Below, one piece after another: positions 4,913 through 31,953 of a DNA stretch of 39,896 nucleotides. The first letter of the stretch is position 1; every line of letters begins with the position of its first letter. The stretch spans positions 1 to 39,896 of the forward strand of contig MFVF01000034.1 of the NCBI GenBank assembly GCA_001785965.1, in the 5' to 3' direction. The notes under the pieces were generated by a model. That model worked only from the letters and a program-made list of their open reading frames with translations, ran no database searches and was not told the DNA's origin. The position numbers and the translations under genes were made by a program. This stretch comes from Candidatus Nomurabacteria bacterium RIFCSPLOWO2_01_FULL_42_20 (lineage in GTDB: Bacteria; Patescibacteriota; Minisyncoccia; Phycocordibacterales; CAZVEC01).

Positions 4913-5902
4913 ATGTCATTAAGTATCGGAATCGTGGGTCTTCCAAATGTAGGCAAGTCCACGCTCTTTAACGCGCTTACCAAAAAGTGTGTGCCGGCGG
5001 AGAATTATCCTTTTTGCACGATTGAGCCTTCAGTGGGCGTTGTGCCGGTGCCTGACCCTAGACTTGCTAAACTCTCCGAGTTTAGCAAGTCGGGCAAGAC
5101 GATTCCGGCCGCCGTTTACTTTGTGGATATCGCGGGACTCGTGGCTGGCGCGGCAGAAGGACAGGGCTTGGGCAACAAATTTCTTTCGCACATCCGGGAA
5201 GTTGACGCCATCGCGCATATAGTGAGAGTTTTTCAGGACCCTTCTATAATTCATGTGGCCAATAAAGTAGAACCCTTGGAGGATATCGGTGTCATCAATC
5301 TTGAACTTGTCTTGTCAGACATGGAGGTTGTAACCAAGAGATTGGCTAGTTTACAAAAAGAAACTAAACGAGGCGACAAAGAATCAGTAGCTGAAGAAAT
5401 AATTTTAAAAAAAATAGAAAAAGTTTTGGAAGGCGGCAAAATGGCAACGGAAACGAATTTGAATGAAGAAGAGAAATTTAAAATAAAATCCCTAAACTTG
5501 CTCACTTTGAAACCGATGCTGTATGTTTTAAATGTTTCCGAGGCCAGTGAAAATATTGAATTCAAAGCGCCAGGTATGATCGTGAAAATTGACCCTGTTT
5601 TTGAGCGTGGATTTGATGACCTGATTAAAAAAAGCTACGAACTGCTTGGTTTGGAAACTTTTTTCACGACCGGCGTTGATGAAACACGCGCCTGGACAAT
5701 AAAAAAAGGATCAACCGCGCCGGAAGCCGGCGCGGCCATCCACACCGACTTCCGCGACAAATTCATCCGCGCCGAAGTCATAAACTGGCAAGATCTGCTT
5801 GATAGTGGAAGTTATGCCACCGCCCGCGCCAAAGGCCTTGTCCGTACAGAGGGGAAAGACTATATTGTTAAGGATGGAGACGTGATTGAGTTTAAGATAT
5901 GA
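4913..5902 (+). CDS. ychF: Redox-regulated ATPase YchF (Obg family)
   Basis: [34 protein letters not shown], and a TGS C-terminus [12 protein letters not shown]. Confidence 0.98.
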
Positions 5903-5965
5903 TGGAGATGCCTGCCCCGTAGCGAGCTTTGCTCTGCTACTGGGGTGATTGAATTTAAGATTTAG
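5901..5965 (+). pseudogene. Second, synonymously diverged ychF 3' end interrupted by a 35-bp palindromic element
   Basis: GATGGAGATG[5911-5945]TGATTGAATTTAAGATTTAG re-encodes DGDVIEFKI* once the insert is removed. Confidence 0.85.
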
Positions 5966-5983
5966 CTCTATAATATATTTAAT

Positions 5984-6457
5984 ATGAAAAATTATATAAG
6001 GAATAGTTTTGAAAAAGCTCCTGTAGAAACAAAAACTTTGACACCACAAGAACTAGAAAAAATCATTCTAGAGGAGGACGGATATACGGTTAAAGATAAA
6101 CGCTTTCTTTCTAAAGAAGAAGGTGGGGTCTTTCATTATTTCAGGCCGGAAGACCTTAGAACTGAAAATTACTTTCCAATTGTTAAAGAAGGAGATCTAA
6201 TAACAGGAATTGCTGCACTCCAAAAAAGTCCATTCGCAGAAAAATTGTTTTGGATGAAGTCTATTTCCATAGATCCAAAATATCAAGGTAATCACTATGC
6301 AACTAAACTTGCTGAGGAAATCATTAGGTTTACTAAAGACCAAGGTTATCAATTAGAAGTCTCTGGATATTCTAATAGGGAAGCAAAGGATAAATTAGAA
6401 AGATTGTTCAATAAATTTGCAGAGAAATATGGAGTCACTTTGGTTTCTGAAAAATAA
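5984..6457 (+). CDS. GNAT family N-acetyltransferase
   Basis: Motif A-like SISIDPKYQGNHYATKL. Confidence 0.8.
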   Translation: MKNYIRNSFEKAPVETKTLTPQELEKIILEEDGYTVKDKRFLSKEEGGVFHYFRPEDLRTENYFPIVKEGDLITGIAALQKSPFAEKLFWMKSISIDPKYQGNHYATKLAEEIIRFTKDQGYQLEVSGYSNREAKDKLERLFNKFAEKYGVTLVSEK

Positions 6458-6623
6458 CTTGCTATACAAAAGTCTTTGTTTATAATGAAAAAAAGAATTT
6501 TGAGCCCAATACCTCCTCCTAATCATACTTACACTATTCGTATTAAGAAAGAAGATTTTAAATGATTTCGTTAGTTTATTCCATAATTCTGCAGAATTAT
6601 GGAATACATGATAAAATTTTAAT

Positions 6624-6908
6624 ATGAGCAAAAATAACAATTTAAATTATAGAAGAATAGAAAGAACCGTTAAGGGCTTTTCTAATCATCGGCGGATTCA
6701 AATTATGGATCTTCTTTTCAAAAAACCGGAATTATCAGTTGCAGAAATTTCTGACTTGCTGAAAATCAATTTCAAAACTGCCTCGCAGCACATTACTCGG
6801 CTGGCTTTTGCTGGTCTAATCATGAAGCGATCCGATGGAACAAGTATCCGGCATAAATTGACGCCACTAGGGGAGAGTGTTCTTAAATTCTGCAGAACAT
6901 TAGAATAG
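6624..6908 (+). CDS. ArsR-like winged helix-turn-helix regulator
   Basis: SNHRRIQIMDLL...LSVAEISDLLKINFKTASQHITRL. Confidence 0.85.
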   Translation: MSKNNNLNYRRIERTVKGFSNHRRIQIMDLLFKKPELSVAEISDLLKINFKTASQHITRLAFAGLIMKRSDGTSIRHKLTPLGESVLKFCRTLE

Positions 6909-6938
6909 TGATTCACCGTTTAATTTAAGATATAAATT

Positions 6939-7526
6939 ATGAAAGAGCTTTACGCATATGTTTCGATAATCAATAATTCTTTTAAGAAGGAGATTTTGTC
7001 TATTCAAGAAAAGATTAAGCAAATAACAGGCGAACTTGATTACTTTTTACAATGGCCTCCCCATTTTACTGTTTCTTATGGAAATTCTCTTAACGAGGAT
7101 GAACTTGCCGAAATTATAAAGACTTTCGAAAAAGTTGCCATAGAAACAAAACCTTTTCAAATTGATTTTGATAAAGATCCCGTGTTCTCAACAAAAATCT
7201 TAAATGGCACAAAGTTTTTTTCAATGAAATTAAAAATCATAAATAATCGAGATATTGGACGGCTTTCTGATCAACTTATTTCGATTGCAGATAGTTACGA
7301 ATGTCCTTTTAAAAATCTTTTTAAAAGAGATAAATTTCATTTGACTTTAGTTACGACATCACAAATCACTGACAAAGAATTTTTAATTTTAATGGAGGAA
7401 TCTAAAAAATGGCTTATCCCCAAGGGTGTTTTTGTTGATTCTTTTTCTATAATTAAGGGTGGCCCGGTTGTGAATGGATACCCAACGATGGATTCAGAAA
7501 TAAAAAAATTTTATTTACATGATTAA
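6939..7526 (+). CDS. 2H phosphoesterase (2'-5' RNA ligase superfamily)
   Basis: Two HxT motifs: PHFTV and FHLTL. Confidence 0.8.
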   Translation: MKELYAYVSIINNSFKKEILSIQEKIKQITGELDYFLQWPPHFTVSYGNSLNEDELAEIIKTFEKVAIETKPFQIDFDKDPVFSTKILNGTKFFSMKLKIINNRDIGRLSDQLISIADSYECPFKNLFKRDKFHLTLVTTSQITDKEFLILMEESKKWLIPKGVFVDSFSIIKGGPVVNGYPTMDSEIKKFYLHD

Positions 7527-7554
7527 TGTGATAGAATTTAAGATATAAAAAATT

Positions 7555-10037: not shown

Positions 10038-10269
10038 AAGTGGTTAAATTACTAGATACTTTTTCTGCGTATGTTCCGCATCTGCTAGTTATCCACCCCG
10101 TAAAATCCTCCTAATCGTCGGATCACGGGGCGCGAAGTGCCAAAATATAATTCAGTATGAAATATTGACCTTTTCTGCGTATGTTCCGCATCTGCTAGTT
10201 TTCCACCCCATACCAGATCCTCGCGCCGAATGCGCGCTCGGCTCGGTACGGGGCGCGAAGTGGTTAAAT
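10038..10269. repeat. Tandem pair of composite repeat units bounded by a 12-bp direct repeat
   Basis: 39-bp repeat at 10061-10099 and 10171-10209 (1 mismatch); acggggcgcgaagtg twice; aagtggttaaat at 10038 and 10258. Confidence 0.85.
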
Positions 10270-10339
10270 AGGACAAGTATTACAAGATAGACTTAGTCTT
10301 TGTAATAACTGTGGTAAAAAAGTTTTCCACACCTTAGGC

Positions 10340-10387
10340 TTGCTTATCGATCTCGCTATTATTATAATGTACTAGTACGCTGATACA
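10340..10387 (+). promoter_or_regulatory. Sigma70 promoter with an adjacent TrpR-box-like operator
   Basis: TTGCTT-17 bp-TATAAT (10340-10368), then TGTACTAGTACGCTGATACA (10368-10387) just before the TrpR-like gene. Confidence 0.6.
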
Positions 10388-10694: not shown

Positions 10695-12411
10695 GAATTT
10701 TATTTTCACTCTTTTAGTTTTTTTTATTTTTCCATTTTACCCCCACACCTTCCTGCAGGAAGGTGTGGGGGTTTATTTTGTTTTTGCTCAAACTGAAAGT
10801 ACCGGGAGTATCGTTATAACAGAAATCATGTATGATCTTTCCGGATCCGACACTGGTCGGGAATGGATTGAGGTTAAAAATAATAATTCGGCTGATGTTG
10901 ATCTCTCCACTTACAAATTTTTTGAAGACGATACCAATCATAAATTAGAGAGCTTTCAAGGCGAACCCATTTTAGATTCTGGTAGTTTTGCCATCATCGC
11001 CGATGATCCATCAAAATTTTTAATTGATTGGCCGAATTTCTCCGGCGCTATTTTTGACAGCAGTTTCTCATTATCAAATACCGGCGAAGCTCTGACTCTG
11101 AAAGATGAAAACTCAAATATTGTTGACGAGGTAAATTATGTTTCTCTTTGGGGAGCTTCCGGCAACGGCAAATCTCTTCAGCGTAAAATTGATAGCAGTT
11201 TCATTGAAGAATTACCGACTCCCGGCGCGGAATTAGCTGAAGAAATTATACCAGAGGAAGTAATTACAGAAGAAATTATCCCAGAAGAAGTTATTCCGGA
11301 AGAAATTATTACAGAAGAGATTATTTCAGAAGAGGTAGTTACAGAAGAAGTTATCCCGGAGGAGATTATTACGGAAGATTCTTTGGAAAATAATGAAATT
11401 ACGGAGAATATAGAAGTCATATTAGAAAATTTGACAGGCGAAGAGTTTATAGAAGATACAGAATCAGAAAGCACAGAATCTAATGAAAATGCCGAAGAAA
11501 ATGTTGATCAGTCAGAGGAGCAAACAAAAGAAGATCCTGAAAATCCTGAAGAAGCTGAAATAATCAGCACGGAAACGCCTAAGGTTTTTATAAACGAAAT
11601 TAATTGGATGGGCAGCGCGGGTAATGCATATGGCGAATGGATAGAACTTTACTGCAATTGCGCTAGTGATATGGATTTAGCTGATTTTGGAATTTATGAC
11701 GGTGATGAAAAATTGATTATAAAATTAACTAAAAAAATATCAGCTCACGGCTATTATCTCATAGCAAGAACAACACCAAGTCATAAAAATGAATTGGAAG
11801 AATATGCTGATGAAATCGGCCAATTTGGCGGTAGCGGTTTATCAAATGAAGCCGAAATGCTTGTCTTAAAAGACGGCGGCGGCAATATTGTAGAGAGTCT
11901 TGATTTTAGGAGCGGCTGGCCGGCGGGAGATAATAGCACAAAAGAAACAATGCAGTGGGACGGGGCAGGGGAAAATTGGTTCACCAGTCCGGCCACGCCT
12001 CGGGCGGAGAATAAAAAAATAATAACTGAAAACAGTACAACTAATTCAAACGCATCTAATACGGATTTTTCTGCAAGCGAGAGCGCAAATGTAGCGCCAA
12101 TTGTTAATGTCCAAGAAAAAAAACAAGAGAAAAAAATTATTACTTCGAAGGATCTAAAAATTTACTTCAACCAAAATGATTTTTCCATAAAATTCAAAAA
12201 TACTACAAAAAAAGAAATTAATTTATCAAATTTAAAATTGCAAAGCGGAAGCAAAACATTTACAATTCCTAAAAACACATTTTTGCTTGGCGGCAGTGAA
12301 ATTATTGGGTCATCTAAAATTACCGGTTTTAACCAAAAAGACGATTTAATTCTGATTGGTGAAGATAATAAAATAATCACTGACGCTTCATTCATGAACC
12401 CTCGACTTTAA
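10663..12411 (+). CDS. Secreted lamin-tail-domain (LTD) protein with an acidic repeat linker
   Basis: Two LTD-like units (IVITEIMYD..EWIEV; VFINEINW..EWIELY) and an N-terminal hydrophobic segment. Confidence 0.85.
   Translation: MLKKLQKIKTRNFIFTLLVFFIFPFYPHTFLQEGVGVYFVFAQTESTGSIVITEIMYDLSGSDTGREWIEVKNNNSADVDLSTYKFFEDDTNHKLESFQGEPILDSGSFAIIADDPSKFLIDWPNFSGAIFDSSFSLSNTGEALTLKDENSNIVDEVNYVSLWGASGNGKSLQRKIDSSFIEELPTPGAELAEEIIPEEVITEEIIPEEVIPEEIITEEIISEEVVTEEVIPEEIITEDSLENNEITENIEVILENLTGEEFIEDTESESTESNENAEENVDQSEEQTKEDPENPEEAEIISTETPKVFINEINWMGSAGNAYGEWIELYCNCASDMDLADFGIYDGDEKLIIKLTKKISAHGYYLIARTTPSHKNELEEYADEIGQFGGSGLSNEAEMLVLKDGGGNIVESLDFRSGWPAGDNSTKETMQWDGAGENWFTSPATPRAENKKIITENSTTNSNASNTDFSASESANVAPIVNVQEKKQEKKIITSKDLKIYFNQNDFSIKFKNTTKKEINLSNLKLQSGSKTFTIPKNTFLLGGSEIIGSSKITGFNQKDDLILIGEDNKIITDASFMNPRL
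11239..11376 (+). repeat. 15-bp (EE[IV][IV][PTS]) tandem coding repeat, about 9 units
   Basis: EEIIP EEVIT EEIIP EEVIP EEIIT EEIIS EEVVT EEVIP EEIIT. Confidence 0.9.
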
Positions 12412-14201: not shown

Positions 14202-15119
14202 GTGAAGAAAAATAAAACAAACAAAATCGCTTTGTTTGAAGGGCAGAAAATCCGACGGCATTGGGATGAAGACAAAGAATTGTGGTATTTTTCTATTGTA
14301 GATGTTATTGCGGTGTTAACGAATAGCGATAACCCGCAGGTTTATTGGCGCGTGCTTAAGAAAAGGCTTATAGACGAAGGTTCAAATGAAACCGTTACAA
14401 AATGTAACGCTTTGAAAATGTTGGCTCCCGACAACAAAATGCGGCTTACTGACGTCGCTGATACAGAAACAATACTTCGCCTCATTCAATCTATTCCTTC
14501 ACCGAACGCCGAACCATTTAAGCTCTGGCTGGCGCGCGTGGGCTACGAGCGTTTGGAAGAAACAGCTGATCCGGAACTAGCTATTAATCGGGCGCTCAAG
14601 ACATATTTGCAAAAAGGATACAGCAAAGATTGGATAAATCAGCGCCTTAAGAGTATTGAAATTAGAAAAGCATTGACAGATGAATGGGAAAATCGCGGAG
14701 TGAAAGAGGGGCTTGAATTTGCTATTTTGACCAATTAAATTACAGAGGCCTGGACCGGGCTCTCGACTAGTACAGTATAAAAATTTGAAGGGTCTCAAGA
14801 AAGAAAATTTGCGCGATAACATGACCAATCTGGAATTAGTTTTGAATATGCTGGCCGAAACTGCGACAACTGAAATTTCCCAAAAACGCGAACCGAAAGA
14901 TTTTGCGCAAAATAAAGAGTACTTTGATTCGACTTCGCTTTGACGCTGTGTGCGAGAGTACTCGCCCACGCGCTCCTCGCTCGTCGAAATAAAAAAGTTG
15001 CTCGCGAAGGCGGAAATATTGCCGGCCATGCGCGAAAGCAAATTGAGGGAAAAACAGGAAAGAAAGTCATCAGTAAGATCAGTTTTAAAAAAATTAAAGA
15101 GCAAAAGAAATTAGGATGA
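14202..15119 (+). pseudogene. Bro-N / phage-antirepressor-like protein, inactivated
   Basis: Bro-N motifs (WYFSIVDVIAVLT, LRLIQSIPSPNAEPFKLWLA). Premature TAA at 14736-14738, a frameshift near 14770, and a 70-bp insert at 14917-14986. The expected C-terminus (ENLRDNMTNLELVLNMLAE...VAREGGNIAG...KKLG*) continues in other frames. Confidence 0.85.
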
Positions 15120-15199
15120 AACAATACGACCACAAAAAAATTGAGCGAAAGTGGCCCTCCTTCGCCAAGGCTTCAGATGGGCAAGCAAAAGGAATATGA
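15116..15199 (+). pseudogene. Dead duplicate of the leuS N-terminus interrupted by a 31-bp palindromic element (reads as a 27-aa ORF)
   Basis: MKQYDHKKIERKW[insert]QKE versus the functional MKQYNHSKIEKYWQKE. Confidence 0.85.
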
Positions 15200-18100
15200 A
15201 ACAATATAATCATAGTAAAATCGAAAAATACTGGCAAAAGGAGTGGGCCAAGAAAAAGATTTACAAAACCCTTTCTTCGCAAGAAGCTAGACGCAAGACC
15301 CTTCGTCGCCAAGGCTATGCAGGGCGAGAGCTAAAGCCTTTCTATGTTCTTGACATGTTTCCGTATCCGTCGGGAGCGGGACTGCATGTGGGGCATCCGA
15401 GAGGATACATCGGTTCGGACGTTTGCGCTCGCATGAAAAGAATGCAGGGCTACAACGTGCTTCATCCGATGGGCTATGACGCTTTCGGTTTGCCGGCCGA
15501 GCAATACGCCATTGAACACAAAGTCCATCCGCGTGAGGCGGTCAAAAGAAATGTGGCGACATTTGAAAAACAATTATCCATGATTGGCCTTTCTTATGAT
15601 TGGTCGCGCAAAATCAATACCAGCGATCCTGATTATTACAAATGGACCCAGTGGATTTTTTTGAAGCTGCACAATCATTATTATGATGAGAAATTACAAA
15701 AAGCCAGATCAATTTCGGAACTAATTAAAAAATTTGAAAAAGAAAATAAAGAATGGGAAAAGCTCTCGCCTCTTGAAAAACAAGATCACTTGATGAAATA
15801 TCGTCTTGCTTACGAAGGCGAAGCGGAAGTGAATTGGTGTCCGGGGCTAGGAACAGTTCTTGCCAACGATGAAGTTAAAGAAGGCCAGGACGGACACTTG
15901 ATTTCCGAACGCGGCGGTTTTCCGGTTGAAAAAATAAAAATTAAGCAATGGTTTTTGCGTATTACGGCTTACGCGGACAGATTACTTTCAGGGCTGGAGG
16001 AGTTGAAATGGTCACTGCATTTGAAAGAGATACAGAAAAATTGGATTGGGCGCTCCGAAGGGGCGGAAATAGAATTTAAGCTAGTCGCTAGGAGCCAGCC
16101 GCTAGGAGCTATTAAAGTTTTTACCACGCGGGCGGATACGCTTTTTGGCGCGACTTATCTGGTACTCTCGCCGGAGCATGCCATCATTCCCAAATTAAAA
16201 ATTGAAAATATAAAAGAGGTTGAAAATTACATCAATCAAGCAAAGCACAAAACTGCTGAAGAAAGAACTCGGGTGGAAAAAGACCCTTCGACGGGCTCAG
16301 GGCAAGCAAAGACAGGCGTTGAGCTGAAAGGTGTGAAGGCGATAAACCCGGGGAATGGTGAGGAAATTCCGATTTGGATTTCCGATTATGTTTTAGCTGA
16401 TTACGGGACTGGTGCCATCATGGCCGTGCCGGCGCATGATGAGCGGGATTTTGCGTTTGCGAAGAAATATAATCTGCCGATTAGAGAGGTTATTGTAAAC
16501 TATGACATAGACGGAATGGGCTGGGCGCCAAAGGCAGGCAAAAAGTTTAGCACATACAGAGGAGTAAGTGCGGTGATTTTCAATAAAAAAAATGATACTG
16601 TTCTATGTTTGAGATGGGCTCCGCAAGGTTGGGGCACTTTTGTTACCGGAAAACTTGATCCCAATGAGAATAATTTTAAAGAAGTTGCTCGGCGCGAGAT
16701 CTACGAAGAGACTGGTTATAAGAACTTAAAATTGATTTACGAACAAAAAAATCCATACTTCACGACTTATTATCATGACGGCAAAGATGAAAATCGTTTT
16801 ACGGAAATGCACCGTCTATTTTTTGAGCTTATGGATGAAGAGAAGGATGAAATTTCTGATGAGGAAAAATCCAAGCATGAAATTGTCTGGGTTGCGCGAA
16901 AGGATATTCAAAAGTTTATAACCGCGAGTTACGATCAGGAAATTGTGGAAAAAGTAATAAATGGAACTTTTATGGAGAAATCTTGCTTTGCATGCCATGG
17001 TATATTAGTTGACTCAAAACAATTCACAGGCATGACTTCTGAAGAAGCGCGTAAAAAAATCACTGACTTTGTCGGCGGCCAGATCGTCACCAAATACAAA
17101 ATGCGGGATGCCGTTTTTGCCCGGCAAAGATATTGGGGCGAGCCGATTCCGCTTTGGCGCGATAAAGAGGGAATAATCCATGAAGTAAAAAAGTTGCCGC
17201 TTAAATTGCCTAATGTAAAATCATACGAACCGACAGGGAAGGCGGAAGGGCCTTTGGCTGGAGTGAAATCTTGGGTGGCGAAAGGCTACGAAACTAATAC
17301 CATGCCCGGCTGGGCGGGAAGCTCTTGGTATTATCTGCGCTACATGGATCCGAAAAATAAAAAAGAACTTGCGGGGAAGAAAGAAATTGAATACTGGCAA
17401 CAAGTTGATATATATGTGGGCGGGACAGAACATGCTACAGGGCATCTTCTTTATGCGCGTTTTTGGAACAAATTTCTGCATGATCTTGAAATTACGCCGA
17501 CCGAGGAGCCGTTTAAGGAACTGCACAATCAGGGGATGATCATAGCTTCAGATGGAAGAAGGATGTCTAAACGATGGGGCAACGTCGTTAACCCAGACGA
17601 TATTGTCAAAACTTATGGCGCCGATACGCTTCGGGTTTATGAGATGTTCATGGGGCCGTTTACCGATTCGATCGCTTGGTCAACCGAGAGCATCATCGGC
17701 CCGAGAAGATTTTTAGAAAAAGTTTGGCGTGTCGCACAGCGACTACAGATTAACACTGATAAAAAACTGATCAACACTGATAAAATCGGTGAAAATCAGT
17801 CTAGAAATCAGAGTAAATCAGTAGATTTTTCTGTAGAAAAATTATTACACAAAACAATCAAAAAAGTCACCGAAGATATTGAAGCGATGCGTTTCAATAC
17901 TGCCATATCTAGCATGATGATTTTCGTCAACGCTCTAGATGCGGAACATACGCGGAAGGATGCGCAAATAGATATTGGAAACTGGGTACTATTTTTAAAA
18001 CTACTTGCGCCTTTTGCTCCGCATATTGCTGAAGAACTTTACAACGAACAACTTATAACTAACAACAAAAAAAGTCTGCGTAAGTCTGCGGCGAGTATTC

Positions 18101-18333
18101 ACGAGCAAGAGTGGCCGAAGTGGAATCCAAAATTGATTATTGACGAAACAGTTAAAATCGCCGTGCAGGTGAACGGAAAAGTCCGGGCTGAAATTGAAAT
18201 TCTGGCTGACATTAATGAAGGCGAGGTCCGAGAGATTGCCTTAGCCAATGAAAATATCAAAAAGTGGGTAGAGGACAAAGAGGTCAAAAAGTTTATTTAT
18301 GTGAAAAACAAGCTTGTTAACATTGTAATATAA
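15196..18333 (+). CDS. leuS: Leucine--tRNA ligase with an inserted Nudix domain
   Basis: LDMFPYPSGAGLHVGH, FTTRADT editing motif, GAIMAVPAHDERD, RMSKR. The true start is ATG 15196, not GTG 15151. Confidence 0.97.
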   Translation: MKQYNHSKIEKYWQKEWAKKKIYKTLSSQEARRKTLRRQGYAGRELKPFYVLDMFPYPSGAGLHVGHPRGYIGSDVCARMKRMQGYNVLHPMGYDAFGLPAEQYAIEHKVHPREAVKRNVATFEKQLSMIGLSYDWSRKINTSDPDYYKWTQWIFLKLHNHYYDEKLQKARSISELIKKFEKENKEWEKLSPLEKQDHLMKYRLAYEGEAEVNWCPGLGTVLANDEVKEGQDGHLISERGGFPVEKIKIKQWFLRITAYADRLLSGLEELKWSLHLKEIQKNWIGRSEGAEIEFKLVARSQPLGAIKVFTTRADTLFGATYLVLSPEHAIIPKLKIENIKEVENYINQAKHKTAEERTRVEKDPSTGSGQAKTGVELKGVKAINPGNGEEIPIWISDYVLADYGTGAIMAVPAHDERDFAFAKKYNLPIREVIVNYDIDGMGWAPKAGKKFSTYRGVSAVIFNKKNDTVLCLRWAPQGWGTFVTGKLDPNENNFKEVARREIYEETGYKNLKLIYEQKNPYFTTYYHDGKDENRFTEMHRLFFELMDEEKDEISDEEKSKHEIVWVARKDIQKFITASYDQEIVEKVINGTFMEKSCFACHGILVDSKQFTGMTSEEARKKITDFVGGQIVTKYKMRDAVFARQRYWGEPIPLWRDKEGIIHEVKKLPLKLPNVKSYEPTGKAEGPLAGVKSWVAKGYETNTMPGWAGSSWYYLRYMDPKNKKELAGKKEIEYWQQVDIYVGGTEHATGHLLYARFWNKFLHDLEITPTEEPFKELHNQGMIIASDGRRMSKRWGNVVNPDDIVKTYGADTLRVYEMFMGPFTDSIAWSTESIIGPRRFLEKVWRVAQRLQINTDKKLINTDKIGENQSRNQSKSVDFSVEKLLHKTIKKVTEDIEAMRFNTAISSMMIFVNALDAEHTRKDAQIDIGNWVLFLKLLAPFAPHIAEELYNEQLITNNKKSLRKSAASIHEQEWPKWNPKLIIDETVKIAVQVNGKVRAEIEILADINEGEVREIALANENIKKWVEDKEVKKFIYVKNKLVNIVI

Positions 18334-18349
18334 GATATAATACTGGGAT

Positions 18350-24619: not shown

Positions 24620-24698
24620 TAAATTCTTGATCTTTAACGGCCATTCAGGCGGACCCGCCCAAATGCGTAGCTTTTGGCGGGAAGGAAATTGAAAATAG

Positions 24699-24769
24699 GC
24701 GAGATTAGTTTAGTGGTAGAATGTCTGCTTCCCAAGCAGAGGACACCAGTTCGATTCTGGTATCTCGCA
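24699..24769 (+). tRNA. tRNA-Gly(CCC), CCA not encoded
   Basis: GCGAGAT/ATCTCGC acceptor stem, TCTGC-TTCCCAA-GCAGA anticodon arm, ACCAG-TTCGATT-CTGGT T arm. Confidence 0.95.
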
Positions 24770-24856
24770 CATCGAAGACCTTCCTCCGCCGTCCGCCACA
24801 ACTTCGCAGATGTTGGCGGACAGGCGGACCCGCCTGCATGCGAAGCTTGCGGCGGG

Positions 24857-24896
24857 CAAGCAGAGGACACGGGTCCGATTCCCGTCACTCGCACCA
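24857..24896 (+). pseudogene. 3' half of a second, diverged tRNA-Gly allele preceded by nested palindromes
   Basis: CAAGCAGAGGAC-ACGGG-TCCGATT-CCCGT-CACTCGC-ACCA. Confidence 0.85.
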
Positions 24897-25710: not shown

Positions 25711-28700
25711 ATGTTAAAACATATGTCAAAAAAAATTTTATTGCGTTTTTTAATTATCAGCCTACTTTTTTCAAGCGGATTTTTCGTATTTCCTCAAAAT
25801 ACAGAGGCTCAAGAAGCGCCAGCAGGACAGCACTGGGAAAGACAATGGGTCTTGAGCGACTCATCGAGTAACGGGCAGTATCAATCATACAGGATGGAGC
25901 TAGTACTGGTAGCCGACGATGCATGCTTTCCGGCGGGAACAAAAATAACAATGGCTGATGGCGCCGAAAAGAATATTGAAGATGTAGAAATAGGCGATTT
26001 CGTTCTTGCATATGACGAAGAGAGTGGTGAGAAGAAATCTGCAAAAGTGCTTGAAATTGAGTCACCAATGGCAGAAGGATATTACGCACTTAATGATGAC
26101 TTACTCCGAGTTACGGATGAACACCCAATATACACGCGTAAAAAAGATGGTACTGTGGGATGGGGTTCTATTTTACCAGAAAAAACAAAGGAACTTTTAA
26201 GGTGGCGGTCAATACTTTCACTTGAAGCTGGAGATTCTGTATTTACTCAAGATAATGAATGGGTGGAGCTTACGTCAATAGAATATATTGAAGGTGAAAT
26301 ACAGACATATAATCTAAAAGTGGTAGAGCCATACCAAACATTCTTTGCTGATGGTGTGTTAGTTCATAATAAGCCTCCGGAAAAGGAAGAAGTGGGAGGT
26401 GGGAATAGTGAGACGAATAGTTATACTTTTGGTACAGAGCAATCTGGTCTGGCCATTGAGGTGACGAGTAAGAGTAAAGTAATAGCAAAGCCATTTGCGG
26501 TTTGCATACCATTACCAGAGATACCGGGCGCGGTCAGTTATGAATGGAGGATTTTTGCAGACGGACAAGAAGTTCCACGATTTCAATTCCCCAGCACTCC
26601 ATTTTCCCAGAATACAGATGAACCAATTGGTTGTATAACGATAGGCTATGGAGCTGGCGGGGCGATAGAGCTGGGGAAACCTTGGAGCCACACACTCTAT
26701 AATAATACAACTTTTTCTTATGATATAAGGCCGCTTAATGTTGATGGTGCACCTCTATTCCCATTTTATAATAATGGATGGCTGCCGCGTGAGATTACAT
26801 CAATTCCCCCACACGCACTGCCATTAACGCTAAAAAGATTAGACTGGAGCGGCGTTTTCACAGCTCCTCCGAGTACTGTAGAGTATGCCTTAGTGATAAG
26901 AGAAAATCTAAATGACATAATATCTTTTAATCCCTCCACTGCTTACACTTTTAGAAATATCCTAGCAAATGAGACAAGCGCAAAAGTCTGGGAAGAAAAA
27001 GAGGGGTGGTATTATTGGGGATTAGACGCCCTTGATGCCTATGGCGACGTTCTTGGTGTGCCCGCTCCTTCTACAACATACGCCTCTGGCCTCACCTGGA
27101 ATTTTGGTCCCCCCACCAGTATCAATGGTCATTTTTTCTATATTCCTCCTGAACCGGGTCAAGAACCAGGTTATAGAGCAAGTGGAGCTGGAAGTGAAAC
27201 TCAGAGGACTCCTTATTTACAATGGAATAGAATTCCTGGCGCAGTGAAATATCAGCTCCAAATCCTTAATGAGGAATACTGGACGGAATATCCGGGGGTA
27301 GCAGGTTACGCGGGAAATTTTACTTATATTGATTTTAACCCTGATACCTCTCCTACTGCTAATGAAAAGTTTATAACTCTTCCCGATCAGGCTTATAATA
27401 ACGATCCCTATTATGGTTATGGTACTTGGGCTAGCGGGACTCTTATACGCTATGCCCCGCCTCAATATCAAATACCAGTAAAATACCCACAAGCGTCACG
27501 AGCTTACTATTGGCGAGTGAGAGGGATTGATGGGGATGGGAATGTCGTTGGAACGAGGCCAATGTCATATAATGGAGGAAGTGTTTATTTTGAACAGCCG
27601 GTTTTTGAGTATAAGAATGTGGGAGTACTCTGGAATAGAGATCCAAATGCCAAATATGATATCGTAGATTTAGTCCAAAATCCAGCTGATTTTGATCTTC
27701 TGCCGACGGCCCCGGGAGATCCTATTCTTCCTGGAAAAGGAACAAAAGATCAGCAAATATTAATGAATGAAAAGAAAAAATCATTCTTCGGTTCTCTCTT
27801 AGCAAAAATTTCCCAAATTGCTCATGCCCAAGGTGGCGGTGGTAATGATGGTGACATGCCATTTCTAATTAGGAAAGTTATTGTCGGCACACCAACGAGC
27901 GAAGAAGTAGTTGCCAAAAATCTAGCAAAACTTATGAGGGATGCTGTAATAAATTATGGCCATTTGATGTTTTTCGATATTGTTATAGACGGTGGAAAAG
28001 AACTCCATCAATTCTTTATTGATTATTGTGATAATGATCCTAACGTAGTTGGCGAATTTGAATATGATACGCTTTGCCATCCAGATGGTGTTTATGGTTG
28101 GGCTATAAAAGTATGTGAAATGGACTATCCTGGCGTTTCGCAATGGAGAGAATTTGAGAATTGTTTATGGCCAAAGGTGATAAATGGGCAGATAATCGTA
28201 ACCGGAAATGTGATTACTGTAAATCACCCTAGCAGCTCGTTTAATGTCATAGACGCAAGCACTGGCTCTGCCAATATCGTTATAAACGAGCTAAATAGCA
28301 CTACAACCACCCTTACGTTAACAGGGAATCAAGGTCAGTTTATACTGGAATTTCCCTCACTAGCTGATTTCAAAATTATATCTCCGTCTGTTGATTTAGG
28401 CGGTCAGATATATTATGAATTTGAAAATCTTTTACCTGATACAAAATATTACTGGCGAGTAAAATCGGCAGGTGAAGGCCCTCCAACAAATGGTGGTGGA
28501 AATTTGATAACAAGCCATTGGACTGCGATTGCTTCTTTTACAACCCCACCCACTAACCCAATTTTCTTTGAAGAACCCGAGCTTGAGTTGGTTGCACCGG
28601 TGAGTTTGAAAGGGAAAGAACCATTTTTTAAAGAAAGTGGATTTAGCAATTTTATTGGTAGAATTAAATTTAGGCTGGATACTTTATTTCAAGGGAAAAC

Positions 28701-28806
28701 TGAAGCTCAAGAAAAAGAAAAAAGGAGAAAGGAGGAAAAAAAAGTTGACATGGTTATGAGAAAAATGGATGAGCTAAGAAAAGAAATGCGAGAAAACGTT
28801 AGATAG
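25711..28806 (+). CDS. Large secreted protein with an N-proximal Hint (intein-like) domain and FN3-like modules
   Basis: Signal peptide ending TEA-Q. Hint domain from CFPAGTKITMADG (25924) to TYNLKV..FFADGVLVHN (26370). FN3-type strands YYWRVRG and LLPDTKYYWRVKS. Confidence 0.9.
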   Translation: MLKHMSKKILLRFLIISLLFSSGFFVFPQNTEAQEAPAGQHWERQWVLSDSSSNGQYQSYRMELVLVADDACFPAGTKITMADGAEKNIEDVEIGDFVLAYDEESGEKKSAKVLEIESPMAEGYYALNDDLLRVTDEHPIYTRKKDGTVGWGSILPEKTKELLRWRSILSLEAGDSVFTQDNEWVELTSIEYIEGEIQTYNLKVVEPYQTFFADGVLVHNKPPEKEEVGGGNSETNSYTFGTEQSGLAIEVTSKSKVIAKPFAVCIPLPEIPGAVSYEWRIFADGQEVPRFQFPSTPFSQNTDEPIGCITIGYGAGGAIELGKPWSHTLYNNTTFSYDIRPLNVDGAPLFPFYNNGWLPREITSIPPHALPLTLKRLDWSGVFTAPPSTVEYALVIRENLNDIISFNPSTAYTFRNILANETSAKVWEEKEGWYYWGLDALDAYGDVLGVPAPSTTYASGLTWNFGPPTSINGHFFYIPPEPGQEPGYRASGAGSETQRTPYLQWNRIPGAVKYQLQILNEEYWTEYPGVAGYAGNFTYIDFNPDTSPTANEKFITLPDQAYNNDPYYGYGTWASGTLIRYAPPQYQIPVKYPQASRAYYWRVRGIDGDGNVVGTRPMSYNGGSVYFEQPVFEYKNVGVLWNRDPNAKYDIVDLVQNPADFDLLPTAPGDPILPGKGTKDQQILMNEKKKSFFGSLLAKISQIAHAQGGGGNDGDMPFLIRKVIVGTPTSEEVVAKNLAKLMRDAVINYGHLMFFDIVIDGGKELHQFFIDYCDNDPNVVGEFEYDTLCHPDGVYGWAIKVCEMDYPGVSQWREFENCLWPKVINGQIIVTGNVITVNHPSSSFNVIDASTGSANIVINELNSTTTTLTLTGNQGQFILEFPSLADFKIISPSVDLGGQIYYEFENLLPDTKYYWRVKSAGEGPPTNGGGNLITSHWTAIASFTTPPTNPIFFEEPELELVAPVSLKGKEPFFKESGFSNFIGRIKFRLDTLFQGKTEAQEKEKRRKEEKKVDMVMRKMDELRKEMRENVR

Positions 28807-29772: not shown

Positions 29773-30009
29773 GCCAGAGCTAGACCGGGTCTAGCTCTGG
29801 CTCGAATTGGCCGGGAAACCCCTGTTGAAACCTGGTTTCAACAGTTCTTCAAAAATTAAAGATTTTGTCGAATATTTTCTAGAAAACACCCCCGTCAAGG
29901 AGCCTCCTTGACGGGGGTGGACTTTTAGTAAATTATTAGAAAGTGATAACTGAAGTCAGACCTCAGCAAACCCTTTATTGACGGCCCTTTACTGAGGTCT
30001 GAATTCAGT
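29773..30009. repeat. Cluster of four unrelated palindromes
   Basis: Perfect arms at 29773-29801, 29822-29844 and 29887-29919; 18-bp near-perfect arms at 29949-30009. Confidence 0.9.
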
Positions 30010-30588: not shown

Positions 30589-31293
30589 ATGATTAAAAAA
30601 ATATCTATTGGTTTTGTGATAATGGCTTTGCTTTTTGCCTTTTCGGTGACTGCGGTCAGGGCGCAAGAGGCGAGCATTGACGTTAAGGCCGAACTGGGTA
30701 TTGAAAATGTTGGCCGATTGCCGGGGAGCCCCTGGTATTTCTTGAAAGAACTGCGCCGAGGCATAAGCAAGCTGTTTGCTTTTGGTTCGGTCAGAAAGGC
30801 CGAAGTAGAACTTGAGATTGCTAACGAGAAAGCGGCGGAAGTCGTGGTCCTGGAAGAGAAAGAACCCCTTAATACGGCGGCTATCAAACAGGCCATGGCT
30901 AATTATGGCGAGTCCAAAGAAAGGCTGGCCGAAAGAGTCAAGAGACTGGAAGCGGAATCTGATAATCCGAATGTTGAAAAACTGCTCATCAAGATTGAAG
31001 AGCAGTCTGCCAAACACGCGGAAGTTTTCAGTAAATTAGAAGCTAGGTTTAAAGTTGAGCCAGTTGAGTTGGAGTCTGGTCTGGATATGGATTTTGAGGT
31101 AGAGACAAAGGTAGAAGTAGAGGGAGCGGCAAAGGCGACAATGCCTTCAACTTCAATCAGCGAAGAGGTTGAGCCGGTAGCAAGTCCGGCAACAAGTCCG
31201 ACAACAAGTTTAGAAACAAGCATTGAACAAGATTTAGAAGCAATACAATTACCAGAATTAGAGGATCTTAATTTAGGAGACTTTAACTACTAA
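30589..31293 (+). CDS. DUF5667-like secreted helical protein
   Basis: Signal peptide; GRLPGSPWYFLKE motif; acidic low-complexity tail. Confidence 0.75.
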   Translation: MIKKISIGFVIMALLFAFSVTAVRAQEASIDVKAELGIENVGRLPGSPWYFLKELRRGISKLFAFGSVRKAEVELEIANEKAAEVVVLEEKEPLNTAAIKQAMANYGESKERLAERVKRLEAESDNPNVEKLLIKIEEQSAKHAEVFSKLEARFKVEPVELESGLDMDFEVETKVEVEGAAKATMPSTSISEEVEPVASPATSPTTSLETSIEQDLEAIQLPELEDLNLGDFNY

Positions 31294-31300
31294 ATAAACT

Positions 31301-31381
31301 ATGACTAAAAAAATCACAACCCCAGTAGCAGATCCTCGCACCGAATGCGCGCTCGGCTCGCTACGGGGCGAGAAGCGGTAA
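31301..31381 (+). pseudogene. Dead duplicate of the glutaredoxin 5' end cut by a palindromic element
   Basis: ATGACTAAAAAAATCACAA versus ATGACTAAAAAAATTACAA at 31428; element at 31319-31372. Confidence 0.8.
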
Positions 31382-31427
31382 AACAAACTTTATAACATTA
31401 TAGACTTTATAACTTTATAACTAACTT

Positions 31428-31688
31428 ATGACTAAAAAAATTACAATTTACTCAACACCGAGCTGTCATTTTTGCCACGCGGCTAAGGATTTTTTCAAGG
31501 AAAATAAAATTAAATTTACCGATTATGATGTCTCAACCGATATGGAGAGGCGCAAAGAGATGATTGATCTGACAGGCCAGATGGGCGTGCCGGTCATTGT
31601 CATTGGTGATCCCTCGGATCCATCGGGGCAAGCAGAAACTCTTATTGGTTTTGACAAGCGCAAAATCAAAGAATTGCTCGGGCTTTAA
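31428..31688 (+). CDS. Glutaredoxin-like protein (NrdH/YruB type)
   Basis: IYSTPSCHFC, TGQMGVPVIVI, IGFD; an extra PSDPSGQA peptide. Confidence 0.92.
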   Translation: MTKKITIYSTPSCHFCHAAKDFFKENKIKFTDYDVSTDMERRKEMIDLTGQMGVPVIVIGDPSDPSGQAETLIGFDKRKIKELLGL

Positions 31689-31693
31689 TTGTG

Positions 31694-31839
31694 GTCAGGA
31701 ATAATTTTTTTGTCGTCACAAAAAAATTTTCACGACCCTGGCTCGGTAATTTTTTCTGCTGAAAAAATTATACCTGCGCCGGGCACAAAACGCAGAAAAG
31801 TTCCGCGGGGAACTTTTCTTGAAATTGCGTTTTGTGCCC
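31694..31839. repeat. Multi-hairpin structured element downstream of tRNA-Arg
   Basis: aatttttttgt/acaaaaaaatt, taattttttc/gaaaaaatta, and gggcacaaaacgca/tgcgttttgtgccc enclosing gaaaagttcc/ggaacttttc. Confidence 0.75.
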
Positions 31840-31906
31840 CCGGCCAGAATTGAACTGACATCAGACCCTTAGGACGGGCCTGTTCTATCCGTTGAACTAC
31901 GGGGGC
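31835..31906 (-). tRNA. tRNA-Arg(CCT), CCA not encoded
   Basis: GCCCCCG/CGGGGGC acceptor stem, GGCCC-GTCCTAA-GGGTC anticodon arm, GTCAG-TTCAATT-CTGGC T arm. Confidence 0.9.
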
Positions 31907-31953
31907 ATTGAATCCCGACGCTTTCCCCGACTTTACGTCGGGGCTACGGGGGC
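31907..31953 (-). pseudogene. Duplicate tRNA-Arg 5' end interrupted by nested palindromes
   Basis: Minus strand reads GCCCCCGTAG[ccccgacgtaaagtcggggaaagcgtcggga]TTCAAT, then the intact GCCCCCGTAGTTCAAC. Confidence 0.75.

What the first reader, a model, noticed from the sequence alone, without database searches (positions are those of the whole stretch)
5873..31953. Recurrent 'disrupted terminus + intact replacement' scars at five conserved genes: candidate insertion-and-rescue system
Seen: ychF (3'), leuS (5'), tRNA-Gly (3'), glutaredoxin (5') and tRNA-Arg (5') each have a second copy of the gene terminus on the outside of the working gene. In every case a GC-rich palindromic element interrupts or truncates the outer copy. 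In ychF and leuS the insert is frameshifting (35 and 31 bp) and 10 bp of gene sequence remain on its gene-proximal side; tRNA-Arg keeps 5-6 bp. The copies differ by synonymous, conservative or base-pair-compensatory changes, so they look like different functional alleles rather than simple target-site duplications. Some outer copies keep ancestral context (leuS ATGA overlap with the upstream gene; tRNA-Gly CCA plus terminator). Inference: an element hits an important gene near its end and the gene is restored from a foreign allele, for example DNA taken up via ComEC, by homologous recombination inside the gene and an illegitimate junction next to the hairpin. Alternatively the elements colonised redundant ends left by earlier allele replacement, or the hairpins are the recombination or nicking sites. 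I know of no description of this pattern but cannot search the literature.
Basis: partly seen in the sequence, partly recalled or inferred. Interest (0 to 1): 0.88.

Follow-up and report, generated by a model that had tools for sequence, protein, structure and literature searches.

The report
Hairpin elements that duplicate gene ends
Small hairpin-forming mobile elements sit just inside the ends of essential genes and tRNAs in this tiny bacterium and its relatives. Each leaves a displaced stub of the old gene end outside an intact, differently spelled working end, so the gene survives.

Summary
Genome-wide, 35 of 1407 gene or tRNA termini have a second copy in their own flank, against about 4 expected. 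The stretch between the copies is unusually structured.

The main element, which I call PAL-A, has a CCCC-A-GTA…TAC-GGGG hairpin followed by CGAGAAGTGGT. It has about 32 copies in this genome. In 18 of these 32 a repeat abuts the hairpin foot. In 15 of those 18 the copy on the other side runs on into the working gene.

The same element in the same arrangement occurs in many Patescibacteria classes, repeatedly at uvrB, tsaD, clpP and lepA.

Outer and inner copies differ mostly at third codon positions (9/5/44 by position; 38 synonymous against 10 nonsynonymous codon changes). They are therefore two functional alleles, not a decaying duplicate. A congener has empty sites at leuS and ychF.

The two-step "hit, then rescue" order is not shown. 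No enzyme is linked and the mechanism is inferred. One correction: the leuS insert is a repeat but not a palindrome. No published description was found.

The parts
890..898 (+). Outer stub of the start of the small ORF at 1009/1018-1269 (ATGAAACAC). The repeat may extend over 876-898.
   Evidence: (family D15).
899..1017 (+). PAL-A-type element (hairpin 899-948, conserved GGAAGTGGT to 959) plus an AT-rich spacer. The inner copy is at 1018-1026.
4913..5902 (+). Working ychF. Its last 30 nt (5873-5902) are the inner copy.
   Evidence: Pfam YchF-GTPase_C and MMR_HSR1. Sequence.
5901..5909 (+). Gene-proximal piece of the displaced ychF end (GATGGAGAT, sharing GA with the working stop codon).
   Evidence: It differs from the inner GATGGAGAC by one synonymous base.
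5910..5944 (-). Short PAL-A hairpin without tail (CCCCAGTAGC…GCTACGGGG on the minus strand). It interrupts the displaced ychF end, and its foot faces 5945-5965.
   Evidence: DNA fold z = -3.9.
5945..5965 (+). Displaced ychF terminus (V I E F K I, stop TAG).
   Evidence: It shows 4 differences in 30 from congener G001, against 7 in 30 for the inner copy (counted by hand).
10058..10340 (+). Tandem array of repeat + PAL-A + spacer, then repeat + PAL-A + spacer, then a partial repeat. It lies upstream of a Trp-repressor-like gene and holds no coding terminus.
   Evidence: (D5, D8, D12).
14202..15119 (+). Decayed Bro-N/DinD-like upstream gene. It has a nonsense codon at 14736-14738 and a roughly 77-nt repeat element at about 14925-15000. 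Its end overlaps the outer leuS ATG.
   Evidence: Pfam Bro-N. Comparison with the intact G001 gene. The element has many copies in this genome and in relatives.
15116..15154 (+). Displaced leuS start (MKQYDHKKIERKW) in the ancestral context.
   Evidence: It matches 10 of 13 residues of G001, against 8 of 13 for the inner copy.
15155..15185 (+). 31-nt GC-rich repeat (my label PAL-B). It causes a frameshift and is not a significant hairpin.
   Evidence: The 11-nt core of the family was found 12 times in the genome. Fold z = +1.2.
15186..15195 (+). 8 nt of leuS sequence (CAAAAGGA) plus AT. The stub reading frame ends in a TGA that overlaps the working ATG.
   Evidence: read by hand.
15196..18333 (+). 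Working leuS. It holds an in-frame 30-nt PAL-B-like insert at about 15298-15327 and a NUDIX domain.
   Evidence: Pfam. G001 lacks the 10 extra codons.
24646..24681 (+). A further copy of the GC-rich hairpin unit, upstream of tRNA-Gly.
   Evidence: family D3.
24699..24770 (+). Working tRNA-Gly (CCC).
24771..24856 (+). Two GC-rich hairpin units between the two copies of the tRNA-Gly 3' half.
   Evidence: Fold z = -5.8, with 0 of 200 shuffles as good.
24857..24896 (+). Displaced tRNA-Gly 3' half (anticodon loop to CCA), followed by a terminator-like hairpin. Its T-stem changes are compensatory.
   Evidence: (D7). It pairs poorly with the present 5' acceptor strand (2 mismatches, by hand). A contiguous tRNA that uses this half exists in run X1.
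31301..31319 (+). Displaced glutaredoxin start (MTKKIT).
   Evidence: (D9).
31320..31427 (+). Full PAL-A: hairpin 31320-31368, conserved CGAGAAGCGGT to 31379, then an AT-rich spacer with TTTATAACT repeats.
31428..31688 (+). Working glutaredoxin gene.
   Evidence: Pfam Glutaredoxin.
31834..31906 (-). Working tRNA-Arg (CCT). It is inverted relative to congener G001.
31907..31943 (-). 5 nt of tRNA sequence (TTCAA, 31908-31912) followed by a 30-nt hairpin (31914-31943).
   Evidence: Fold z = -2.5.
31944..31953 (-). Displaced first 10 nt of tRNA-Arg (GCCCCCGTAG).
   Evidence: The match is short and only credible alongside the other sites.

Best explanation
Several families of small, non-coding, GC-rich repeat elements live at the ends of genes and tRNAs. 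Most are hairpins. The main one, PAL-A, is found across the Patescibacteria. They sit in a 'terminus-duplicating' arrangement: displaced old gene end, then hairpin with its foot against the stub, then spacer, then a complete working gene.

Shown:
- This arrangement and its excess over chance.
- The fixed orientation of the element.
- The element's conserved structure.
- Its spread across classes, and its recurrence at the same sites.
- That stub and working end are two alleles that both evolved under protein or tRNA constraint.
- That the stub sits in the ancestral context.

Inferred: the working end, probably with part of the gene body, was brought in by recombination with DNA of another lineage, and the element marks the non-homologous junction. 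I think the unit 'element + spacer + gene terminus' most likely behaves as a self-rescuing homing cassette. The gene body gives a long homology arm, and the junction at the hairpin foot is made either by a short arm (the stub) or by a trans-acting single-strand nickase/joining enzyme. The RAYT-like HUH proteins encoded in this genome are candidates. Because the cassette carries a full terminus, insertion into an essential gene is harmless, so it can spread by DNA uptake. The near-identical element may also anchor later allele replacement.
For: - Excess of terminal duplicates: 35 observed against 4.1 expected at score 15 or more, among 1407 termini.
- Structured gaps: 21 of 35 against 40 of 200 controls.
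- In this genome, 18 of 32 PAL-A copies have a repeat abutting the hairpin foot. In 15 of those 18 the spacer-side copy runs on into a gene or tRNA.
- Codon-position bias of 9/5/44, with 38 synonymous against 10 nonsynonymous changes, in 17 pairs. p = 3.5e-6 against a decay model. Some synonymous changes switch codon family (Ser TCA/AGT in rplB; Leu and Arg in C35).
- Empty sites in relatives for leuS (G001) and ychF (G001 and G003).
- A contiguous tRNA-Gly that uses the outer-type 3' half exists in the same community.
- The hairpin is kept by covariation. All 43 of 43 distinct copies pair at the foot, 39 of 43 have z below -2, and there are 41 different inner stems.
- The strict pattern is patchy, in 4 of 201 genomes of the order. 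Yet the 18-nt motif occurs in 43 loci of Patescibacteria-type or untitled records, and 27 of the 41 matches evaluated there carry the duplication, against 0 of 15 matches without the hairpin.
- The same sites recur in different classes: uvrB in 6 loci, tsaD in 5, clpP in 3.
- Serial insertions give three alleles of one C-terminus, each with its own spacer and stop codon (L020; L039).
Against: - No enzyme is linked. The RAYT-like genes of this genome are flanked by other hairpins.
- That protein family is in 116 of 201 genomes, so it is not specific to PAL-A carriers.
- No RAYT-like or GIY-YIG motif lies within the 43 loci, about 322 kb. The regexes found only 3 of 4 and 3 of 5 known copies here, so sensitivity is limited.
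- Three of 17 pairs are identical, and sub-families of near-identical elements sit at different genes in one genome. This points to transposition within the genome that creates the duplication on the spot, which a pure homing model does not explain.
- In ychF, leuS, tRNA-Arg and two other loci, 5-10 nt of gene sequence lie between the element and the working terminus. That fits 'element inside the old allele' better than 'element leads the incoming DNA'.
- A 20-45-nt stub is short for RecA-type recombination.
- The closest relatives held are only 65-80% identical, so recombination tracts could not be mapped. The leuS mosaic signal is ambiguous.
Confidence: 0.45

Rival explanations
1. Transposition with a long, variable target duplication, followed later by allele replacement. 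The element transposes within the genome. Its insertion chemistry duplicates 10-67 nt of target, and only insertions whose duplicate contains a gene end survive. Later, ordinary recombination with other lineages, anchored in the conserved element, swaps the working allele and leaves the old stub behind.
For: - Identical or nearly identical pairs: 3 of 17 are identical and 6 of 17 differ at 1 base. Six tRNA pairs are exact over 15-19 nt.
- Sub-families of near-identical elements lie at unrelated genes in one genome.
- The repeat can extend beyond the stop codon (about 49 and 38 aligned nt at C17 and C3).
- The base before the hairpin foot is mostly A (read by eye).
- The tRNA-associated family always cuts in the T-loop.
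Against: - At 5' sites the repeat starts within about 0-13 nt of the start codon in many cases. Random staggered cuts would not give this.
- I recall no known bacterial transposition chemistry that gives 10-67-nt variable duplications.
- The model needs a second process for most pairs.
Confidence: 0.22
2. An element disrupts the end of a conserved gene. The cell is then rescued by a foreign allele, through homologous recombination inside the gene and an illegitimate junction a few bases from the element.
For: - At ychF, leuS, tRNA-Arg, C16:27861 and C10:10884 the element lies inside the outer allele, with 5-10 nt of gene sequence on the gene-proximal side.
- The same repeat families also occur as in-frame inserts inside genes (leuS at 15298-15327). 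Insertion into coding sequence therefore does happen.
Against: - A frameshift in leuS or the loss of a single-copy tRNA end is lethal, so there is no time to wait for rescue unless cells hold several chromosome copies.
- The junction lies 0-2 nt from the working terminus in 5 of 5 such cases. Random illegitimate joining would not give this.
- In the commonest class the element, spacer and working end are contiguous, with no gene sequence on the proximal side.
Confidence: 0.18
3. Scars of classical integrase-type integration. Integrative elements that carry a replacement gene end integrated at these genes, as phage 21 does at icd or P4-like elements do at tRNAs (both recalled). They were then almost wholly deleted, leaving attL and attR close together.
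For: - The arrangement (replacement end, element, native end) is that of integrase att sites.
- The tRNA sites use the anticodon loop or the T-loop, as recalled for integrase sub-families.
- The genome encodes one tyrosine recombinase.
Against: - The remnants are conserved multi-copy elements of 30-160 nt with a selected hairpin. They are not random deletion leftovers.
- About 30 or more sites in a 0.7-Mb genome, with a single Xer-like recombinase.
- The same 45-61-nt element lies at dozens of different genes.
Confidence: 0.07
4. Assembly artefact: strain-chimeric contigs stitched together at repeats.
For: - The genome is a scaffolded metagenome bin of 35 contigs with N runs.
- Logan contigs break at the repeats.
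Against: - The same oriented arrangement occurs at 18 or more sites here. It also occurs in 27 of the 41 evaluated matches in records from many projects, including a 694-kb single-contig record (L069).
- An independent run's contig spans the tRNA-Gly site with no difference.
- 20 runs from 17 studies hold 57-99% of the sampled words of window 12000-21999.
Confidence: 0.03

Closest known systems
Fungal mitochondrial mobile-ORF 'gene hybrids' (Allomyces atp6; Glomus atp6, atp9, cox2, nad3)
   Same: A foreign C-terminal piece completes the gene, and the native C-terminal piece lies displaced downstream. The native piece resembles close relatives, while the inserted one is divergent in DNA but similar in protein. 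This rests on passages read in PMC3630166.
   Different: In the fungal cases a LAGLIDADG or GIY-YIG endonuclease ORF of about 0.5-1 kb lies between the copies and drives mobility. Here the insert is 30-160 nt with no ORF. It occurs at both 5' and 3' ends and in tRNAs, in bacteria, and at dozens of sites per 0.7-Mb genome.
Integrase-mediated integration that carries a replacement gene end (phage 21/e14 at icd, P4-type elements at tRNA 3' ends, dusA-specific islands). All recalled, not read here.
   Same: Direct repeats containing the gene terminus flank the element. The element-borne copy keeps the gene intact. Synonymous differences separate the copies. Serial integrations leave arrays of terminal fragments.
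   Different: There is no integrase or cargo. The elements are tiny conserved hairpins, and one element family uses many different genes.
REP / RAYT (REPIN) systems and IS200/IS605-derived palindrome-associated elements
   Same: Short GC-rich imperfect palindromes in many copies, with a GTA(G/C) motif at the stem base. HUH Y1 (RAYT-like) genes are present in the genome, each flanked by hairpins of its own.
   Different: REPs are extragenic and make no duplication (recalled; the abstract of PMC2817692 was seen). PAL-A does not flank any RAYT-like gene seen here. The NCBIfam score is 29-46 bits against a cut-off of 80.
Rickettsia palindromic elements and other small repeats fused into genes
   Same: Small repeats lie inside or at the ends of coding sequences and extend the 5' or 3' ends of genes (passages of PMC3184786). 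In-frame copies occur here too (leuS).
   Different: The passages found in that review describe fusions and extensions. They do not describe a duplicated terminus that preserves the original protein end.

Membership tests
REP/RAYT (REPIN) system | Short GC-rich imperfect palindromes present in many copies | tested here: met
   35 regex hits, 32 of them taken as elements. All 43 of 43 distinct copies fold with the foot paired, and 39 of 43 have z below -2.
REP/RAYT (REPIN) system | Conserved GTAG at the 5' base of the hairpin (feature recalled) | tested here: inconclusive
   GTA(G/C) follows CCCC-A in most copies, but GAA or ATA occurs in others, and the motif lies inside the stem.
REP/RAYT (REPIN) system | A cognate RAYT gene flanked by the same palindromes | tested here: not met
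   The three RAYT-like genes found are flanked by other hairpins. A fourth copy was not inspected. No RAYT-like motif hit occurs in the 43 PAL-A loci (the regex finds 3 of 4 known copies).
REP/RAYT (REPIN) system | Extragenic location without target duplication | tested here: not met
   18 of 32 copies are flanked by repeats that contain gene termini.
Integrative element with att duplication (tyrosine integrase) | Direct repeats containing the gene terminus flank the element, and the gene is completed by the element-side copy | tested here: met
Integrative element with att duplication (tyrosine integrase) | An integrase gene within the element | tested here: not met
   The inserts are 30-160 nt. 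One Phage_integrase match was found in the whole genome, at C10:9644-10159. No resolvase match was found.
MITE | Terminal inverted repeats with a short target-site duplication of fixed length | tested here: not met
   The flanking repeats vary from 10 to 67 nt.
Mitochondrial-type mobile ORF / free-standing homing endonuclease element | An endonuclease ORF between the inserted and the native terminus | tested here: not met
   There is no ORF in the inserts. Small GIY-YIG ORFs exist in the genome. None was found by motif in the 43 PAL-A loci (the regex finds 3 of 5 known copies).
IS200/IS605-type element with TnpB | TnpA and/or TnpB encoded, insertion 3' of a fixed tetra- or pentanucleotide, no duplication | tested here: not met
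   No TnpB zinc-ribbon match was found. Only a weak preference for A before the foot was seen (by eye). Duplications are present.
Retroelement (target-primed reverse transcription, which gives variable duplications) | A reverse transcriptase in the genome | tested here: not met
   No RVT_1 match was found in a genome estimated 94.6% complete.
Known structured RNA family (Rfam 15) | A match to a covariance model | tested here: not met
   Only three tRNAs and weak chance hits were found in the window at E up to 1.

The most novel reading that the evidence does not exclude
PAL-A and its companions are a new class of non-autonomous bacterial homing element. A roughly 45-61-nt hairpin leads a strand of incoming or sister DNA. 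A single-strand nickase/transferase joins the hairpin foot to the resident strand a few dozen bases inside a conserved gene, and the rest is resolved by homology. Each event thus replaces an essential gene's end, and part of its body, with a foreign allele and leaves a stub. This would make the elements both selfish and a main vehicle of core-gene exchange between divergent Patescibacteria.
Probability: 0.25. Interest if true: 0.9.

Novelty: new variant of a known kind. Interest (0 to 1): 0.8.

Why it matters
Patescibacteria have tiny genomes with almost no spare DNA. It has been unclear how mobile DNA persists there, or how core genes are exchanged between lineages.

These elements show one solution. 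An insertion brings its own copy of the gene end, so it can sit inside uvrB, tsaD, clpP, lepA, ribosomal protein genes, leuS and tRNAs without harm.

Practical consequences:
- The stubs are dated fossils of replaced alleles. They give a direct record of horizontal replacement of essential genes.
- They will mislead gene callers through false starts, upstream mini-ORFs and extra tRNA fragments.
- They break assemblies.

If a dedicated enzyme makes the junction, it would be a compact tool-like activity that joins a hairpin-led strand to a chosen site.

Tried and rejected
- **Rfam**: no family matches the hairpins.
- **GIY-YIG lead:** two of three small GIY-YIG ORFs in this genome lie near element sites. 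No such ORF was found by motif in the 43 other PAL-A loci, so I dropped the lead.
- **RAYT lead:** the protein family is in 116 of 201 genomes of the order, against 4 of 201 for PAL-A. That is not a specific association. There were no motif hits beside PAL-A elsewhere.
- **Other enzymes:** no reverse transcriptase, IS110, resolvase or TnpB match in the genome.
- **Microhomology at junctions:** none was consistent at the hairpin foot (by eye).
- **leuS mosaic test**: the 5' half of leuS is closer to G003 (0.68-0.83 nucleotide identity) than to congener G001 (0.60-0.69). The 3' half is equally close to both. This fits a recombination tract running in from the junction, but equally fits a change in G001. 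The G001 frame was also incomplete in the locus, so I make no claim.
- **Reads**: only assembled Logan contigs were available, and they break at the repeats. The table of pieces was cut (2002 not shown). Bridging of the leuS, glutaredoxin and tRNA-Arg junctions could not be seen, and ychF lay outside the stretch laid.
- **Literature:** searches found no description of this arrangement in bacteria. For PMC3184786 and PMC3630166 I read only passages. For the other papers I saw only listings and abstract starts. Supplements were not opened. Phage 21/icd, P4, the dusA islands, IS608 chemistry, TnpB homing and tRNA sub-location preferences are recalled and come from no call.
- **Rows dropped before the count:** of the 50 termini with score 14 or more I kept 17 protein-gene pairs that I had inspected as element-associated. 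I dropped all tRNA rows, neighbouring-tRNA matches, low-complexity matches and pairs with no element between the copies.
- **Grouping:** the '15 without hairpin' group was set by record title. It holds 14 records that name other phyla and one Saccharibacteria-family record (L071) that I had misplaced there. Seven of the 43 other loci carry no phylum in their title.

Full report
**What the window is.** The window is contig C34 of a 697-kb, 35-contig metagenome bin. The bin is estimated 94.6% complete, with about 40% G+C. Its content is typical of Patescibacteria: YchF, a LeuS carrying a NUDIX domain, MurJ, LepA, TsaD, a second class I tRNA synthetase, DUF5671 and DUF5667. The records that share the element are titled Paceibacterota, Saccharibacteria and similar.

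**The five sites.** I read all five directly.

Three sites share one layout: stub, insert, 5-10 nt of gene sequence, complete gene. This amounts to a tandem duplication of 15-49 nt with the insert inside the outer copy.
- At ychF the small gene-proximal piece differs from the working copy by one synonymous base, so it belongs to the outer allele.
- At leuS the stub reading frame runs through the insert and ends in a TGA that overlaps the working ATG.
- tRNA-Arg has the same layout on a smaller scale.

The glutaredoxin site is of another class. There the stub abuts the foot of a 49-nt hairpin. A conserved 11-nt motif follows, then a 48-nt AT-rich spacer, then the working start codon.

At tRNA-Gly a double hairpin separates the tRNA from a second 3' half. 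That half has compensatory T-stem changes, a CCA and a terminator.

Folding as DNA supports a hairpin at ychF (z = -3.9), tRNA-Gly (z = -5.8) and tRNA-Arg (z = -2.5). It does not support one at leuS (z = +1.2). The leuS insert is a member of a GC-rich repeat family but not a palindrome.

- Features: 690 crude ORFs and 40 tRNAs, giving 1407 termini with an N-free 220-nt flank.
- Score: the best ungapped match of the terminal 60 nt against the terminus's own flank.
- Null: the same termini against the flanks of other genes (2075 comparisons).
- Result: a score of 15 or more was reached 35 times against 4.1 expected. A score of 17 or more was reached 21 times against 0.7, and 19 or more 16 times against 0.7.

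Some of the 35 are neighbouring tRNAs or low-complexity matches. The DNA between the copies is more structured than control flanks. MFE per nt was -0.25 or lower in 21 of 35 against 40 of 200 (Mann-Whitney p = 1.5e-5). A 24-nt window of at least 67% G+C occurred in 13 of 35 against 24 of 200.

**The main element.** One family, my label PAL-A, dominates. A regex for its conserved 3' motif gives 35 hits in the genome. Three are chance matches inside genes, which leaves 32.

Its anatomy is CCCC, a bulged A, GTA(G/C), a variable stem-loop, (C/G)TAC, GGGG, then CGAGAAGTGGT. I examined 43 distinct copies from this and other genomes:
- All 43 fold with the foot paired.
- 39 have z below -2.
- There are 41 different inner stems.

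The hairpin is thus kept by compensatory change. Rfam has no match.

By script, 18 of the 32 copies have a direct repeat ending within 6 nt of the hairpin foot. In 15 of those 18 the copy on the spacer side runs on into a gene or tRNA. In the two cases where a feature runs on from the foot side, that feature is the neighbouring upstream gene.

So the hairpin foot always faces the displaced stub and the spacer faces the working gene. This holds at 5' ends (rpmH, rpsL, rplB, clpP, glutaredoxin, a tRNA-Arg) and, in inverted orientation, at 3' ends. Repeat lengths range from 10 to 67 nt. At some 3' sites they extend beyond the stop codon.

**Other families with the same arrangement.**
- A 75-160-nt element lies at the T-loop of six tRNAs, flanked by exact 15-19-nt repeats.
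- The leuS family is also found at C16:27861.
- Two tRNA-Ile genes are nested whole inside the anticodon loop of an older copy.

**Two functional alleles.** In 17 protein-gene pairs the 58 mismatches fall 9, 5 and 44 on codon positions 1, 2 and 3. There are 38 synonymous and 10 nonsynonymous codon changes, and no premature stop in any stub.

Suppose instead that the stub decays neutrally while the working copy takes only synonymous changes. About 46% of mismatches should then be at third positions. The observed 44 of 58 has p = 3.5e-6 against that model, and p = 4e-11 against equal thirds.

Some changes switch codon family without changing the residue: Ser TCA/AGT in rplB, and Leu and Arg in C35. 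The same pattern holds in other genomes. At tsaD in L021 one V/I change accompanies five synonymous changes. At uvrB in L026 the two N-termini differ in length but both keep FKIK..PP.GD.

For most of their divergence, both copies must therefore have been parts of working genes in different lineages.

**Which copy is native?** The only relatives held are distant (65-80% identity), but congener G001 is syntenic.
- leuS: G001 has a single leuS start overlapping the stop of the same upstream Bro-N/DinD-like gene, with no insert. In the window that upstream gene is decayed, and it is the stub that overlaps it.
- ychF: G001 and G003 each have a single ychF end. The stub is closer to G001 than the working end is (4 against 7 differences in 30, by hand).
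- tRNA-Gly: G001 also has a displaced 3' remnant. The two genomes' remnants share ACTCGCAC, while their working copies differ.
- Reads: in run X1 a low-depth contig joins a tRNA-Gly 5' part directly to the outer-type 3' half.

The stub is therefore the resident end, and the working end is the newcomer.

**Spread beyond this genome.** The strict PAL-A pattern is present in 4 of 201 genomes sampled from the order, and not in the congener.

An 18-nt motif scan of 185,579 species genomes gave 58 stretches.
- Fifteen matches lack the hairpin. Fourteen are in other phyla, roughly what chance predicts, and one is in a Saccharibacteria-family record.
- The other 43 loci are titled Saccharibacteria, Paceibacterota, Nomura-, Wolfe-, Zambryski- or Tagabacteria and the like (36), or carry no phylum in the title (7).
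- Of 41 matches that could be evaluated there, 27 have a repeat ending within 4 nt of the foot, against 0 of the 15. A reversed-flank control reached the score threshold in 5 of 56.

The same codons are used again and again in different classes:
- uvrB before the DQP motif, in 6 loci;
- tsaD after IETSCD, in 5 loci;
- clpP after MLIPTV, in 3 loci;
- lepA, rpsS, response regulators and an epimerase.

Two loci show serial insertion, with three alleles of one C-terminus, each with its own spacer and stop codon. This breadth, including a 694-kb single-contig record (L069), together with the contig from an independent run that spans the tRNA-Gly site, makes an assembly artefact very unlikely.

**Mechanism.**

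Shown:
- The elements are mobile and conserved.
- They are fixed in orientation.
- They lie at the junction between a resident stub and an imported working end.

Inferred: how the junction is made. I favour a self-rescuing cassette of element, spacer and terminus that enters by recombination. The gene body serves as the long arm. The second joint is made at the hairpin foot, either through the short stub homology or by a single-strand nickase/transferase.

The genome encodes four RAYT-like HUH proteins and one tyrosine recombinase. None is tied to PAL-A.

Against a pure homing model:
- Some pairs are identical (3 of 17).
- Element sub-families are shared between unrelated genes within one genome. 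This implies transposition within the genome that creates the duplicate on the spot.

**Comparison with what is known.**
- The arrangement is that of integrase att sites which carry a replacement gene end (recalled).
- It most closely matches the fungal mitochondrial 'gene hybrids', where a foreign C-terminal piece and a homing-endonuclease ORF displace the native C-terminal piece (PMC3630166, passages read).
- The elements themselves look like REP or IS200-type palindromes.
- What differs is the combination: ORF-less inserts of 30-160 nt, acting at both ends of protein genes and in tRNAs, at dozens of sites in a 0.7-Mb genome and across a whole bacterial radiation.

I found no description of this in seven literature searches, nor in the passages found (by term search) in a review of small bacterial repeats.

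I file it as a new variant of a known kind. It would be categorically new if a dedicated hairpin-led joining reaction is shown.

Noticed in passing
G000 C2:5722-6250 and C30:150-620: Two tRNA-Ile genes each sit whole inside the anticodon loop of an older tRNA-Ile. The old 5' and 3' halves flank the new gene, with AT-rich fillers that share inverted ends (TCGATTACGATAT…). No GC hairpin is involved.
   Followed up: partly
G000 C1:1313-1540, C9, C12:21179, C16:40987-41165, C7:11919: A 75-160-nt GC-rich element lies in the T-loop of six tRNAs, flanked by exact 15-19-nt repeats (T-loop to 3' end). The element holds an inverted copy of the T-arm (GGAATCGAAC). At tRNA-Trp two copies are nested and a third, different tRNA end follows.
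   Followed up: partly
window 15298-15327; L002 and L003 (RAYT-like genes): GC-rich repeats sit in frame inside coding sequences. There are 10 extra codons in leuS relative to G001. Hairpin repeats also lie inside two of the RAYT-like genes themselves.
   Followed up: partly
window 10739-10772, 22658-22710, 29773-29801, 29887-29919, 35012-35041, 36939-36961: Perfect GC-rich palindromes of 23-53 nt, several lying inside long ORFs (LTD protein, LepA, the class I synthetase, TsaD). The ACCCCCACACCTT arm is the commonest GC-rich 10-mer family in the genome, with 48 arm copies. Whether they are in-frame inserts was not checked.
   Followed up: no
window 15196-18333: LeuS carries a NUDIX domain (residues 455-583) between the editing domain and the catalytic core.
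   Followed up: no
window 14202-15119: The Bro-N/DinD-like gene upstream of leuS is a pseudogene here. It has a nonsense codon at 14736 and a roughly 77-nt repeat insert. The gene is intact in congener G001.
   Followed up: partly
window 31834-31906 against G001:C2:5564-5637: tRNA-Arg(CCT) is 97% identical to G001's copy but inverted relative to the flanking genes.
   Followed up: no
window 23906-23966 and 33938-34016: Tandem 9-nt repeats (AAGTRAATC-like) lie after lepA and after the PrsW-like gene. Similar stretches have many copies in G001.
   Followed up: no
G000 C25:917-1216, C30:7093-7299, C16:41262-41474: Three free-standing GIY-YIG ORFs of about 85-100 aa. Two lie within about 250 nt of an element site. 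There was no such association in the other PAL-A loci.
   Followed up: yes
window 25711-28806: A 1031-aa secreted protein with weak Hint/intein-like matches near its N-terminus, all below the Pfam cut-offs.
   Followed up: no
G001: The congener has 13 matches to the RAYT-like profile, against 4 in this genome. G042 and G112 have 13 and 12. Copy number of this HUH family varies widely within the order.
   Followed up: no
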